Part shown: positions 53,501-59,500 of the stretch, one piece after another
Layout: each line of letters starts with the position of its first letter
Position numbering within the stretch: position 1 is the first letter of the stretch
Assembly (NCBI GenBank): GCA_001938485.1
Contig: MQRK01205638.1
Span: 23,028-87,027, forward strand
Direction: 5' to 3'
Origin: Girardia tigrina
Lineage: Eukaryota
DNA length: 64,000 nucleotides
Made by a program: the position numbers

Positions 53501-56500
53501 AAAAAAATCAATTCATCTGATTCAAAACCGGACACTCCAATATCTTTATTGTACAAAATATTTTCTCCAAATTTCTATGAGTCATACTTTTTCAATCACT
53601 AATCGACAAACTTTTTTTTTACTTTTTATTTACAAATTTGATTTTTTTACATTTTAAATTGTAATAAATTAAGTCACGTATAAATAATTAAAATTGATCA
53701 ATTTAAACAAAATTCAATCAACATTATTTTTAAAGCATATAAGAACAAGAATAATAATAACAATGATAATAGAATAAATTTAATAACATTAGGACACATA
53801 TGTATAATCACATCACACTGAATACATAAACATAAACACTTTACATATTAACATCCTCACGTTTCATTAACATCGAATCGATTAATCGAAATCGTAATTG
53901 ACGACAGCAAACTCGAACATATAACAATAATAACTCTTTTTTAATTTTATTTAATTAATTATTTTGCTTAATTATTTATTTATTAATATTCATTGATTTA
54001 TTATTTTGTTAGGGCAGTAAAATAATTTTCCGATCTATAAATTAAAATATTTTAACAACTTAATGCTCCCATTTTAAAATAATTCTCAAAAAAAATCTGA
54101 AAATTTGTTTCTAGCTCGTTTGTATATTTTGATACCAAGAAAGAAATATTGACATTAAAAAATTTTAATTTGTCTTTCAATAAATAAATATTTGCATAAT
54201 CGTCAATTTGCTATGTTTAACACATTAATGCTGAGAATTATTGATGATTATGATGCCATGTTATATACACTCCTTTCTTGGTCAAGGTCAGCCGGCTACT
54301 GCGCATGCATGCCTAGTGACAGAGAAACAAAACATGTTCCGTATGTGTTCTGAACCTTCAGAGTACACACCTTATCAACTAAACATAGCTAAATACAATG
54401 TCTTTACTTTTACAGCCATTTTTATTAGCTGGGCACGAATGTTCCCGTTCGGCGTTAATGGGTTAAGACAACGAAATTATTATTAATTAGGCCTGAAAAT
54501 GGTGGAAAATCTACCGAAATATATTGCCACAATAAAATTTAGTTTTTTGAATGGCATTATTGATTTTTATATAAATTATGTTATATTTATTGTCTTAGCA
54601 GAACACGAAGTGTTTTGTGCAATACTTTATGATAATTTAAATTAACGTTTTTCCTATAATTTGTAAATTTAATGATTTTAAGGGAGGTCTGTGGGAGTCA
54701 AAAATTGTTTATCCATAATAAAGAAAATTAACTTATGGTAAAAAAATATTATTCTAAATAACGTTGATTTGGGTTTTAAAAAAATATAATTTTTGCTTTA
54801 ATTTCTAATTCTTTTATATGAAAAATATCTTAAATAATTTCAAATTTCGCTTTCTATTTTTTTAACATATTTACCTTGAAATATTTCTAATTGTTTCATG
54901 TATTGATAAATCCAATTAAATAAATTAATTTCATTTAGGCTTGCGATAATGGTGTTCCTAAACTTTGTTCGGAAAGTCTGACTTTAGAAATAAATATTAT
55001 CGAGACCATGGTAACTTCAAAAAGTTTCCGTATCGAAAGCATATCAAAGCATCAACTGAACATCATTTTGATTATAGTAACCGCCGTTGTCAGTTGCTTT
55101 TTGTGCATTGCGCTCATTGCTGTGTCGCTTTGCATTCGAAAAAGAACTAACTTCTCAGACAACTCCACGAATAACTTCAATCACATTTCCGATTCGGCAT
55201 TTAAAACAGATCAAAAACCCACGATCACAGATAATAATGAGTTTCTAACCGAAAGCCGATTATTCTTTCCCGTTACCGGGCCAGATGTCTGCGAATTGTG
55301 TATTACGGAACCTTTACTCCAACAAGCCAGTCCGGTTAGTTCGTTATCTTTTGTGGAAATTACAATTTTCAGAATGATTTCCGCTATATTTACGGGTTTT
55401 TTTATGTGAGAAAAAAGCGATGAAAAATTTGAAAACAAATATTTTTTAATTAAAATCAAATGTACTTAAAATAGAATAGTTTGAGTTAAAAATAATAATC
55501 TTAATAAAATGTATAATTTGCGTTATTTATATTTTATTTATTATATGATATTTTTTCTGAAATAAATAATTTTTACAAAATATTTTTTCTTAAAATAACT
55601 CTTTTTTCCAATGAAAATTAATCCTTTACATTCACAATTTAATAGGAAAATAAAGAACAAAAATAAAAAAAGTAAAGTTTTTTTATGAAAATTTTTAATG
55701 ATTCTTTTGAAAACTACTGAAGAATGGGTTGCATCTCGAAGAATCAATTCCCAATTGGCAATTTAAATAGAAAAAAACAACTCGTATTATAAAATGCATT
55801 AATTTAATATTTTTCAAATGTTGTCTTTGGCTTTTAAAATACCTTATATAACATCTTATCATTTACAATCTAAAAGGAATTGACGCTGAATAAAGATGGG
55901 AAGATCACATCAATTAAATAAAGTATGTCCTTCCTTATTTTTTGTTATAATTACTTCATTTAATAAATTTTTGGTTAGAAATAATAAAACAACCTTCTTT
56001 CAAAGAAAGTCTCTTTTTCAAAATACATCTTAACTGAAAAATTTCACTGAATTAATTTTTACTTCGTTAAAAATACTCATGTTCCGGATTGATTAGTATA
56101 TTCATATATATGTATATATTTAAAATTTTAATGAAAAAATATATATATTTATAAAATAAATTGTGTGGTTTGTGTAAAAAATTTTGTAAAAATAAATATA
56201 AATTTGAAATTGATAATAAATATGAAAAAAGTGATAATGAGAATTCTCTAAACGATAATGTGACAACTGGAACGATATTTCTAATCGATTGCGCTAAATG
56301 TTTGTTCGATAAACGAGTACTGGTAACCGATACGAACTCATCGAATTCCTGGTTCACGGCGATCATTGAGACTTGTTTATTGGCCATTAAGAACAAAGCG
56401 ATAATCTCCGATAAATATCCTTTTGTTATCGCTTTCTTTCGAGTAAAAACTCCAAAAAAAGAAATCATTACGTTTACTTATGACGACAATCCTTACTCAG

Positions 56501-59500
56501 TCGATTCGATTACTGATGCATGCTACAAAATTTTTGTGTAAATTCACTATTTGCTGCAGAGTGGCATTCTTCTCGAGATTATTCCCATAGGCGATCAATC
56601 GTCCTTTAATCCAGATAAGTTCTATCGGATGGTTGTATGTGACTGTCATTCCGTCATTACACTCTCTACTGCGGGCGATCATCGAAGTTATTCACAGCAC
56701 TACGATGTTAATTCTACGGCACTGGTCCATCTTAGTGATCTAACCTTTCGTCTAAATGATCTAATGACTAGAACTAGGCAGCATCACCGGAAGAGAGCAA
56801 TCGCACACATTCTTCTGGTGCTTGGTGATGGATTATTTATCGATGTAACGGTGTTTAATCCGGTTCGAAAAACGTCAAATTTATCTTATGTTCCATTAAC
56901 TGTCAAACGAATGTCAAGCCATGCTTCAATGCGAATTCCTACTGTCAGAATGCACAATCGATCAGATTTTAAGTGAATCAATAATTACACCTTTTACTTT
57001 TCACTTTGCTTCAATTATAAGACGTTTTTTTTCTAAAAACAAAAAAAAGCAGAATAGTAAGTTATTGAACAGAGGAACAATCTGTTGATAACATATGCGG
57101 GGAGAGATATGTAGTATGATAGCAGCATTATCATAGCTTGATCGACATATTGCAAAAGACTGAATGCGCTGAATAAATCCCATGGTAGATGCATTTGATA
57201 AGTTCAGTCTTGTCTTAAAATCTTTTAGGACTAAAATGTATCTGTAGGCCTGAAACGAATAATGAATGTTTTCAGTTTGAAAAGTGGTTGTATTTAAAAA
57301 AACCTTTAGACAAAAAGTCTAACCAAAATTTGTAATGATTATAAAAAATTAACCTTTAGGAAAAACAATAATTGTATGAAATTATTTTTATTAAATGAAA
57401 CAATTCTTAGGTTTTCTTTAACAAAAATATATTTCTCCCTTAAGGAAAAGAAAGGATATTATACATAGCTTATCATAAAATGTAAAATTGTTGCATGAAA
57501 AACAAAAGATATTTGAAGTAGAAAAATATGTAATATGCCGTAAGGAATGAATCAAAATGGGCTTTAGTGGCTTCGTGAGATTTCTTCTTCCTCAGAGAAA
57601 ATTCTCGGCTTTATATTAAAACATTAAATTTGATAAAATATATCATTTTTCTAATATAATTTCCTCTAGTTTCGTTATAATTTCATGCGAATTCCAATTA
57701 TTAATTCAACACACTTATGCAAATGATCTAAACGTTTTCACAGTAATTGTTCTGTCTACGACTCTCTATCGTCCATAAATAACTGATTAAAATCTTTTCA
57801 AAATTAGAAAATAAATAAAAATCACTTAGAGCCACATCTGTACTATTTGGAAGATGTTTCGGTTCGTGAATAGTAAATAGTAATCATAATATTGTGATCA
57901 TAACAATGGGTACACTCTTTTACAATACTCTTTTAAATCAATGAGCAGTAGCTTGAAAGATAAATTCTCGATCCAGCAAGCTTACACAGTTTGAAAAGCG
58001 TTCAAACTCAGTTTTTTATTTGTTGCATCTGCGTAAGGCCTACAATATCTAACAGTTTCTAAGGTTTGAAAATGTTTCAGGTGATGAAAGTGAAGAATCT
58101 CAAGGTCATTAGATTTTCAGCTAAAGAAGGTCATAAACATAATCTTATGGGGCAAAAATAAGATGCTTTTGATATTTCACTATGAATTATTGCATAGTGT
58201 TTCAATTTCTGTAAAGAATCTCTTGAAATTCATTATCGTCCGGTCAGTCAATTTATTAGATAATGCTTCAAAGGATTTTAATTATTAAAAACTTATTTTT
58301 AGAAGGTCGTCGATTAAAAGGGAAAGAAGTAGTATCTTAAATTTCTTAAGTAAATAATTGTCAAAATCTTCATGGATTCCTTTTGTTCTCAAGGTGGATA
58401 TAGATGTTTCTTTGAAGACAACCAAAAAAACGAATTGACAGCCCACTATCACAGAAGAAGACACAATGGTTTTATTTTATGATTATCTACCCAAAAGAAA
58501 ATCAATAAAATGACCGCAACATGATGAACCTGATCACATTGTTCAGCTAACAAAAAAAGTTTGGTTAAAATATTTTTGGCTGTATGAAGATTGTTTACTC
58601 ATTTATTTTAATACGCAAATGTAACATCACAAATGATTTGAGAGAAATGTTCATGAAATTGACATAGAAGTATTCAATTATTCCATGAAGATGCTCCCGT
58701 TCATAATGCTACTTTGTTACAAGATGCCTTTCAATAATGAGGCTTTATAAAATTGAAACGTCTATCATATTGTCTGGAAAAGGATTCTTTGAATTATCAT
58801 TTATTTTCGAATACGACCTTGAAGATAAATATTCAAAAAGAAAATAATAGGTAAAAAAATCTTAGATCAAAATATTTGCATAAAATCGAAAATATATATT
58901 AATAAAACTTAATTAAAAATATAAATGCAGTTTTTAAAATGATTAAATTATTAGAATAAGAGGAGGCAAATGAACAATTGTAACCTTACATATGACCCAT
59001 GAATCAAGGCTTTCCTGAGGATTTTAAAATGACTTTTAATATAAAATAATAACATGTAATAATTTAGTGTAATTGCGATTATTAATAATTCAGTGGAATA
59101 TTAATAATTGTCTGTAATATTTATTAAAAATAACAAAAAATATAAATACACTTATTAACAAAATAAATAATTAAGAAATAAAACATACAAAAAAAATATA
59201 CAAAACTGAAAAGAATCATCGATATGTCGAACGATTAAAGTTAATTTTAATGAACTAAAATAAAAAAAATTAATAATATTTTTAAGTAAAAAACATAATA
59301 ATACCCTTTTACTTATATATTGCCAGACAAATCTTTTTATGAAGAAAAGAAAAATCATTCCGGAAACAAGGTTGTAACCGTCACAAACAGTAATACAAAG
59401 TAGAGAAAATTTTAAAAGCATTCTCAAAAAATCATCAAACGATATTTAAAGTCGTTAAAATATCGCAAAAAACATTTTAATGTTTCACAAGAAGAAAAAA

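What the first reader, a model, noticed from the sequence alone, without database searches (positions are those of the whole stretch)
56221..56976. Dead Ku70 copy in a genome full of alternative end-joining scars
Seen: an intronless Ku70-like frame with an in-frame TAA, a ~70-aa internal deletion and a 3' truncation. In the same window most TEs and pseudogenes carry large internal deletions, and three junctions have templated filler. Established: Ku70/80 initiates classical NHEJ, and its loss shifts repair to microhomology/pol-theta pathways; some animals such as Oikopleura have lost classical NHEJ. Inference: this is either a unitary pseudogene marking NHEJ loss, or just a decayed duplicate.
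Basis: partly seen in the sequence, partly recalled or inferred. Interest (0 to 1): 0.65.

Follow-up and report, generated by a model that had tools for sequence, protein, structure and literature searches.

The report
Broken partial copy of Ku70 gene
This is a short, broken leftover of the DNA-repair gene Ku70, most likely an ordinary dead gene copy, and on its own it does not show that the animal has lost that repair pathway.

Summary
The core observation holds. Window 56185-56907 (+) is Ku70-derived coding sequence in a single frame. It has one in-frame TAA and no in-frame ATG. About 65-70 residues are missing from the N-terminal alpha/beta domain. Everything after the first strands of the beta-barrel is absent from the window.

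The nearest protein is the intact 589-aa 'putative Ku70' of the planarian Schmidtea mediterranea, at only 33-45% identity. A second, also truncated, copy (P0001, 80% identical) exists in an unnamed record.

The frame is too clean for old neutral decay: 1 stop in 273 codons, against 18.7 expected in shuffles. A neutral simulation allows only about 10-20% amino-acid change since constraint ended. So it died recently, and its parent was a Ku70 gene unlike the Schmidtea one.

The deletion junction has no templated filler. Two of the five mariner-type copies span almost the whole transposase, and I saw no large internal deletion in this family.

The link to loss of NHEJ is unsupported. Planarian ku70, ku80, ligIV, artemis and dna-pk are studied as genes (PMC10157310, PMC7038108). 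I could identify neither the source species nor an intact parent gene, so a unitary pseudogene is unlikely but not excluded.

The parts
56185..56907 (+). Ku70-derived segment as a whole (outer bounds of the homology), all in one reading frame
   Evidence: tblastn of P0002 places residues 5-74 at 56197-56415 and residues 145-279 at 56440-56898. My own Ku70 profile aligns to 56212-56457 and 56551-56907. The codon aligned with the Schmidtea start lies at about 56185.
56155..56457 (+). N-terminal piece: the acidic N-terminus and the first third of the Ku N-terminal alpha/beta domain. The start codon is lost.
   Evidence: 35/77 identical to P0002 residues 5-74, E 1e-14. Profile positions 24-100 are matched. 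No ATG occurs in frame between the upstream stop (56152-56154) and the TAA.
56440..56460 (.). Approximate junction of the in-frame internal deletion (about 65-70 residues of the alpha/beta domain)
   Evidence: P0002 residues 75-144 are missing. In A1 the window row is gapped over columns 101-172, where all full-length Ku70s have residues. The flanks join directly, with no extra sequence.
56461..56538 (+). Alpha/beta-domain piece to the right of the deletion, up to the stop
   Evidence: Aligns with P0002 from residue 145 and with the conserved strand plus 'DD.P' region in A1.
56539..56541 (+). In-frame TAA (premature stop)
   Evidence: Alignment lengths on either side match P0002 to within 2 codons, so the stop lies in coding sequence and not in a small intron (my own count).
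56551..56907 (+). Last part of the alpha/beta domain plus the first strands of the beta-barrel domain. It includes a loop insertion shared with P0001.
   Evidence: 43/116 identical to P0002 residues 182-279, E 6e-18. Profile positions 197-297, E 2.4e-12. In P0002 Pfam places Ku_N at 28-244 and the Ku barrel at 257-451. The window has 21 columns that are gapped in P0002; P0001 has residues in 14 of them, and the other 58 Ku70s have a median of 0.
56908..56976 (+). Open tail with no Ku70 similarity, ending at TGA. The Ku70 homology stops before it.

Best explanation
This is a non-functional relic (pseudogene) of a Ku70 gene copy. It is an intronless fragment of about 720 nt that keeps only the N-terminus, two thirds of the N-terminal alpha/beta domain and the first strands of the beta-barrel. 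It cannot make a Ku70: the start codon is gone, there is a premature TAA, the middle of the alpha/beta domain is deleted, and the ring that threads DNA, the C-terminal arm and the SAP region are absent. It lost coding constraint only recently. Its parent was a Ku70 gene that had long evolved separately from the one known planarian Ku70. That parent was either the Ku70 of another flatworm species or an old paralogue. Most likely it is a retrocopy or partial duplicate, with a working Ku70 elsewhere in the genome (inferred, not shown). It does nothing in repair and is not evidence about the state of NHEJ.
For: Shown:
- Ku70 homology of both halves. It is Ku70 rather than Ku80: 9 of 9 PDB hits for the second half are XRCC6, and for P0002 9 of 10 PDB hits are XRCC6 at E about 1e-77 to 1e-79.
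- Disabling features.
- Recent death. There is 1 stop in 273 codons against 18.7 +/- 4.1 in shuffles. In a neutral AT-biased simulation, <=1 stop has P 0.36 at 10% amino-acid change, 0.077 at 20%, 0.01 at 30% and 0 at 37% or more. Local GC is 0.36 against about 0.25 around it.
- A parent unlike P0002. Identity is only 42/96 and 41/123 over shared columns. Over the same columns P0002 is equally close to a mollusc Ku70 (43/88). The window alone keeps the family-majority residue at 15 columns, against 25 for P0002 alone. It also keeps a canonical strand that P0002 lacks.
- A second decayed copy, P0001: 73 aa on a 522-nt contig, 80% identical.

Inferred:
- A 280-codon stretch without introns and without the 3' half is what copies look like, not an ancestral locus.
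- The window is TE-rich and gene-poor. Genomes lacking C-NHEJ are reported as compact, with a mean of 29.2 Mb against 667.9 Mb (passages of PMC6635534).
- In S. mediterranea, ku70, ku80, ligIV, artemis and dna-pk are handled as genes and Smed-Ku70 mRNA has been measured by qPCR.
Against: - No intact parent was found. The exhaustive search returned nothing closer than P0001 and P0002. The search with P0002 found no other protein above 39% identity among 59 hits. This is weak evidence, because even the expressed Schmidtea Ku70 is in that collection only as a single GenBank/UniProt entry, so planarian transcriptomes are evidently not covered.
- The species is unknown.
- There is no poly(A) tract or target-site duplication.
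- A copy complete at the 5' end and truncated at the 3' end is the opposite of the usual LINE-made retrocopy, which by recalled general knowledge is 5'-truncated.
- The assignment to flatworms rests on a modest margin: P0002 is the top-scoring subject in 1529/2000 and 1313/2000 column resamples.
- If P0001 is the orthologous locus of a sister species rather than a paralogue, it says nothing against a unitary pseudogene.
Confidence: 0.65

Rival explanations
1. Unitary pseudogene. This is the animal's only Ku70 locus, recently inactivated and then eroded by deletions, so classical NHEJ has been lost or is being lost in this lineage.
For: No closer intact Ku70 appears in either large protein search. 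The copy died recently and its parent differed from the only known planarian Ku70. That is what the species' own orthologue would look like. P0001 could be the same dead locus in a related species.
Against: The piece has no introns over about 280 codons and lacks more than half of the gene. The protein collections cover planarians poorly, so absence means little. The window is TE-rich and not compact, unlike the reported C-NHEJ-less genomes. The nearest named relative's species has ku70, ku80, ligIV, artemis and dna-pk. The deletion junction carries no templated filler.
Confidence: 0.15
2. Not dead. This is the first long exon of a live, very divergent Ku70-like gene, with further exons lying beyond the window. 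The stop would be a sequencing error or a polymorphism.
For: The frame is remarkably clean. A GT lies at the very end of the open frame (read by eye). Only 7 kb of downstream sequence is available.
Against: There is no in-frame ATG. About a third of the alpha/beta domain is missing, at a place where all 7 full-length Ku70s in A1 have residues. The last 22 codons of the frame have no Ku70 similarity. The related P0001 open frame covers only 219 of its contig's 522 nt.
Confidence: 0.07
3. The Ku70 likeness is a chance resemblance in an unrelated open frame.
For: Pfam Ku models miss both halves. The PDB hits are weak (E 0.29-0.52). The first half has no meaningful PDB hit.
Against: Pairwise E-values are 1e-14 and 6e-18. 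The library-wide E-value is 3.1e-07 over 1.84 billion proteins. The profile E-values are 2.4e-12 and 1.1e-7, and the two halves are colinear with Ku70 in the same frame.
Confidence: 0.01

Closest known systems
Schmidtea mediterranea 'putative Ku70' (UniProt A0A109PR91, GenBank AMA21728.1; P0002, 589 aa)
   Same: It is the best hit for both halves among 59 Ku70-family proteins. It is colinear with the window in one frame, and the N-terminal motifs are similar.
   Different: Identity is only 33-45%. P0002 is intact, with Ku_N, Ku barrel and Ku_C. The window copy lacks the counterparts of residues 75-144 and 280-589, has a stop and has no start. The window keeps a canonical strand that P0002 lacks, and carries a loop insertion that P0002 lacks. 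It is therefore not a recent derivative of this gene.
Human Ku70 / XRCC6 (PDB 1JEQ, 1JEY and others)
   Same: The second half aligns with chain residues 231-281, the end of the alpha/beta domain and the entry into the barrel.
   Different: The match is very weak (13.6-14.4 bits). The DNA-encircling ring, the arm and the SAP domain have no counterpart in the window.
P0001 (73-aa open frame on a 522-nt contig from an unnamed ENA record)
   Same: It is 80% identical to the window over 73 residues (74% over 77 columns by tblastn). It shares the loop insertion that other Ku70s lack.
   Different: It has two in-frame length differences from the window. Its open frame is far shorter than its contig. 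Its origin is unknown and I did not trace it.
Processed pseudogenes of Ku70 in mammals (recalled from memory; no call)
   Same: Intronless dead copies of a highly expressed repair gene.
   Different: Typical processed pseudogenes keep the 3' end with a poly(A) tract. This copy keeps the 5' end and has no poly(A) tract or target-site duplication.
Loss of C-NHEJ in Oikopleura dioica (as cited in passages of PMC6635534)
   Different: That loss goes with a compact genome, whereas this window is TE-rich, AT-rich and gene-poor. No evidence here shows loss of the pathway.

Membership tests
Ku70 (XRCC6) family | Sequence homology to the Ku70 N-terminal alpha/beta (vWA-like) domain | tested here: met
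   The Pfam Ku_N model itself does not reach either half.
Ku70 (XRCC6) family | Complete N-terminal alpha/beta domain | tested here: not met
   About 65-70 residues are missing from its middle.
Ku70 (XRCC6) family | Ku beta-barrel / DNA-encircling ring (PF02735) | tested here: not met
   Only the first roughly 23 residues of a 195-residue domain are present. Profile positions 298-631 match nothing in the window.
Ku70 (XRCC6) family | C-terminal arm (PF03730) and SAP region | tested here: not met
   No match in any of 3442 six-frame ORFs or by tblastn.
Ku70 (XRCC6) family | Ku70 rather than Ku80 | tested here: met
   9 of 9 PDB hits for the second half are XRCC6. For P0002, 9 of 10 PDB hits are XRCC6, and the one Ku80-type chain scores only E 7.9e-4.
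Ku70 (XRCC6) family | Uninterrupted reading frame with a start codon (a working gene) | tested here: not met
   One in-frame TAA and no in-frame ATG.
Processed pseudogene (retrocopy) | Lacks the parent gene's introns | tested here: inconclusive
   About 720 nt are colinear with the protein without interruption. The intron positions of the parent are unknown.
Processed pseudogene (retrocopy) | 3' poly(A) tract and flanking target-site duplications | tested here: not met
   The 3' half is absent. Only AT-rich chance repeats flank the piece.
Processed pseudogene (retrocopy) | Intact parent gene elsewhere in the same genome | not testable with these tools
The protein searches found no closer intact Ku70, but their coverage of planarians is poor.
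Unitary pseudogene | No functional copy in the genome; lies at the ancestral, syntenic locus | not testable with these tools
   The source genome and relatives' genomes are not available. The upstream neighbour is a cadherin-like terminal exon, noted for a later synteny check.
Alternative end-joining (polymerase theta) scar | Templated filler at the deletion junction | tested here: not met
   The 24 nt that looked like filler against P0002 align with a canonical Ku70 strand. An inverted repeat there (13 nt, 12 of 13 complementary) is of a kind present in 40 of 69 window blocks of the same size, though in only 3.7% of resamples of the region itself.
Alternative end-joining (polymerase theta) scar | Microhomology at the junction | not testable with these tools
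   This needs the undeleted parent DNA sequence.

The most novel reading that the evidence does not exclude
The source animal, a flatworm or similar invertebrate with a large, transposon-rich genome, recently lost its only Ku70. The same dead locus is shared with the relative that carries P0001. That would make it an animal without classical NHEJ that has not undergone genome compaction.
Probability: 0.1. Interest if true: 0.65.

Novelty: new member of a known kind. Interest (0 to 1): 0.2.

Why it matters
As it stands this is an ordinary pseudogene, useful mainly for annotation so that it is not called as a gene.

Two smaller points follow. First, its parent was a Ku70 very different from the only planarian Ku70 on record. 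Flatworm Ku70 is therefore either very fast-evolving or has more than one lineage. Second, the fragment is a young, datable relic that could serve as a neutral marker.

Only if a whole-genome search found no intact Ku70 would it matter more. It would then mark loss of classical end joining in a regenerating animal with a large genome. That would go against the reported link between C-NHEJ loss and small genomes (passages of PMC6635534).

Tried and rejected
I searched the two halves apart and never joined them.
2. Pfam gave no Ku hit for either half, nor for any of the 329 stop-to-stop ORFs of at least 45 aa in the window.
3. PDB phmmer of the first half gave only noise; the best hit was a factor Xa chimera at E 0.12.
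4. A word-index search with the first half against longer proteins scored none of 66 candidates.
5. A small intron around the TAA (a GT...AG pair 24 nt apart, read by eye) was rejected. Removing it would make the window 6 codons shorter than P0002 there, whereas reading through leaves it 2 codons longer (my own count).
6. Templated filler at the deletion was rejected.
7. Carriage inside a transposon was rejected. No convincing terminal inverted repeats or target duplications were found. The self-comparison found 33 repeat pairs in the window, none touching 55000-58500.
8. Species identification through the mariner transposase failed. The best hit was 88% identical but unnamed, and named hits were insects and others at 68% or less.
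9. An exact look-up found 0 of 5 window ORFs in the collection.
10. Rfam and tRNA scans of the window found 0 and 0.
11. A neighbour-joining bootstrap timed out. I replaced it with a column-resampling test of the nearest neighbour.
12. The S. mediterranea genome paper of 2018 is not held, so I take nothing from it.
13. The library has no paper holding 'planarian', 'pseudogene' and 'Ku70' together (0 papers). 'Smed-Ku70' occurs in one paper.
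Full report
WHAT IS THERE

The window is AT-rich animal DNA, with GC of 0.13-0.32 per 2 kb and six N runs.

At 56155-56973 one frame on the + strand is open except for a single TAA at 56539-56541. It closes at TGA 56974-56976. That is 1 stop in 273 codons. The other five frames of the same stretch have 13-33 stops. Base shuffles give 18.7 +/- 4.1, and 0 of 5000 have <=1. Only one other place in the window, a mariner copy at 62122-62943, has so clean a frame of that length. 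Local GC is 0.36. The feature is real and far beyond chance.

IS IT KU70?

Pfam finds nothing in either half. The tools refuse a reference that contains a stop, so I searched the two halves separately throughout. I made no joined or read-through sequence and tested no spliced model, so that step is left out.

- PDB phmmer of the first half gave only noise.
- PDB phmmer of the second half gave 9 hits, all Ku70/XRCC6 chains, but at E 0.29-0.52.
- The exhaustive phmmer of the second half over 1.84 billion representatives gave exactly 2 proteins at E<=0.001. P0001 is 73 aa and 80% identical (E 3.5e-20). P0002 is 589 aa and 43% identical (E 3.1e-07).
- P0002 is the 'putative Ku70' of Schmidtea mediterranea (A0A109PR91 / AMA21728.1). 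P0001 is an unnamed ENA record on one 522-nt contig.
- P0002 is a true Ku70. Pfam places Ku_N at 28-244, the Ku barrel at 257-451 and Ku_C at 464-524. Nine of its 10 PDB hits are XRCC6 at E about 1e-77 to 1e-79.
- BLASTP of the window halves against P0002 gave 35/77 identities (E 1e-14) and 43/116 (E 6e-18).
- A profile that I built from the 59 Ku70-family proteins hit only these two ORFs among 3442 six-frame ORFs of the window (E 1.1e-7 and 2.4e-12; next best E 3.6).

ANATOMY

tblastn places P0002 residues 5-74 at 56197-56415 and residues 145-279 at 56440-56898, in the same frame.

- Residues 75-144 have no counterpart.
- Residues 280-589 match nothing in the window at a meaningful level. Profile positions 298-631 match nothing either.
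- There is no in-frame ATG between the upstream stop and the TAA.
- The last 22 codons of the frame have no Ku70 similarity.

What survives is the N-terminus, about two thirds of the alpha/beta domain and the entry into the barrel. The DNA-binding ring, the arm and the SAP region are gone. Only about 7 kb follows within the window, so '3' truncated' strictly means 'not within the window'.

THE DELETION JUNCTION

Against P0002 alone, 24 nt seemed to lie between the two matches. One arm of a 13-nt inverted repeat (12 of 13 complementary) falls inside those 24 nt, which would fit a templated insert.

The multiple alignment A1 shows otherwise. Those codons (DKYPFVIAFF in the window) align with a strand that canonical Ku70s have and that P0002 itself lacks. 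The deletion is therefore a clean, in-frame loss of about 65-70 residues with no filler.

Inverted repeats of that quality occur in 40 of 69 window blocks of the same size. They occur in only 3.7% of Markov resamples of this region.

HOW OLD, AND FROM WHAT PARENT?

In a neutral, AT-biased substitution simulation of the two halves, <=1 stop has these probabilities:

| Amino-acid change | P(<=1 stop) |
|---|---|
| 10% | 0.36 |
| 20% | 0.077 |
| 30% | 0.01 |
| 37% or more | 0 |

Yet the copy differs from P0002 at 55-67% of positions. Most of that divergence therefore arose while the frame was under selection.

- Over the same columns P0002 is as close to a mollusc Ku70 (43/88) as to the window (42/96).
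- The window alone keeps the family-majority residue at 15 columns, against 25 for P0002 alone.
- P0002 is still the nearest of the family, but modestly: it is the top subject in 1529/2000 and 1313/2000 column resamples.
- The window and P0001 share a loop insertion that the other Ku70s lack.

The 20% amino-acid difference between the window and P0001 fits two copies that have each decayed a little since their split.

So the direct parent was not a Schmidtea-type Ku70. It was either the Ku70 of another flatworm or an old paralogue.

SURROUNDINGS

Nothing in 55000-58500 is repeated elsewhere in the window. No terminal inverted repeats, target duplications or poly(A) tract frame the piece. Upstream, 54939-55406 looks like the last exon of a cadherin (Cadherin_C_2 at E 0.017, plus reading by eye).

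The rest of the window is transposon debris:
- Five mariner-type copies. Each needs two reading frames. They cover 93% (cut by the window start), 50% (an N run lies inside), 67%, 39% and 100% of a 341-aa transposase.
- Tc1- and pogo-type pieces.
- Two GIY-YIG pieces that suggest Penelope-like retroelements (that label is recalled).
- Fragments resembling tubulin, the EF-Tu GTPase domain and Rer1.

I described these only. I repaired, joined and completed nothing, and I could not tell which stretch the operators call virus-like. I did not fill the N runs. I took no contig for human.

NHEJ

I saw passages only of the following papers.
- PMC7038108 measured Smed-Ku70 mRNA by qPCR.
- PMC10157310 knocked down ku70, ku80, ligIV, artemis and dna-pk in S. 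mediterranea. Its authors note that they could not verify knockdown of the NHEJ components at transcript level.
- A 2024 preprint lists Ku70 among planarian repair components.
- PMC7405262 names a Ku70/Ku80 homologue in Schistosoma mansoni.
- PMC6635534 states that Oikopleura lacks Ku70/80, and that genomes without C-NHEJ average 29.2 Mb against 667.9 Mb.
- PMC11410931 discusses break repair and rearrangements in Schmidtea but reports no loss.

If the window is from a planarian like Schmidtea, the pathway genes exist.

I could not show which species the window is from. Neither large protein search holds an intact Ku70 closer to this copy than P0002. That absence is weak evidence, because the expressed Schmidtea Ku70 is itself present only as one deposited entry.

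VERDICT

This is a genuine, recently dead, partial Ku70 copy. It is most likely an ordinary retrocopy or partial duplicate (0.65). The unitary-pseudogene reading is unlikely but open (0.15). The picture of a genome full of end-joining scars is not supported by the one junction and the one repeat family that I could test.

Noticed in passing
window 54939-55406 (+): An open frame that looks like the last exon of a cadherin: the end of a cadherin repeat, a membrane span and a cytoplasmic tail. Pfam gives Cadherin_C_2 at only E 0.017. It lies about 780 nt upstream of the Ku70 fragment on the same strand, so the fragment could sit in or just after that gene's 3' end. It is useful as a synteny anchor.
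   Followed up: partly
window 3-951, 8483-9376, 24642-25320, 43364-43775, 62158-63119: Five mariner-type transposase copies. Each needs two reading frames. They cover 93, 50, 67, 39 and 100% of a 341-aa relative. The first and last are 88.8% identical over 1035 columns. The nearest named transposases are from insects, at 68% or less.
   Followed up: partly
window 2762-3983, 14342-14760, 27489-28140, 52797-53132: Scattered fragments of one repeat family. Two carry GIY-YIG endonuclease pieces, and an open frame beside one has a reverse-transcriptase-like motif by eye. These are probably remnants of Penelope-like retroelements; that label is recalled. I described them only.
   Followed up: partly
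window 38691-39188 (+), 44413-44649 (+), 41112-41423 (-): Short open frames with Pfam matches to Tubulin (E 6e-9), the EF-Tu GTP-binding domain (E 6e-6) and Rer1 (E 0.0025). They may be further gene fragments or pseudogenes. I did not assess their completeness.
   Followed up: no
window 56683-56723 (+): A weak two-copy tandem repeat (period 22, 80% matches, score 50). It lies inside the loop insertion where the window is 4 residues longer than P0001. A small duplication may have made that length difference.
   Followed up: no
window 29458-29828: The two flanks of the N run here belong to a repeat that has a second copy elsewhere in the window, at 98% identity. I did not read that copy across the gap, and the N run was left as it is.
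   Followed up: no
window 56067-56468 (-): An antisense open frame of 133 aa lies opposite the first Ku70 half. It has no Pfam match and is not in the protein collection. It is probably a by-product of the coding composition of the sense strand.
   Followed up: partly
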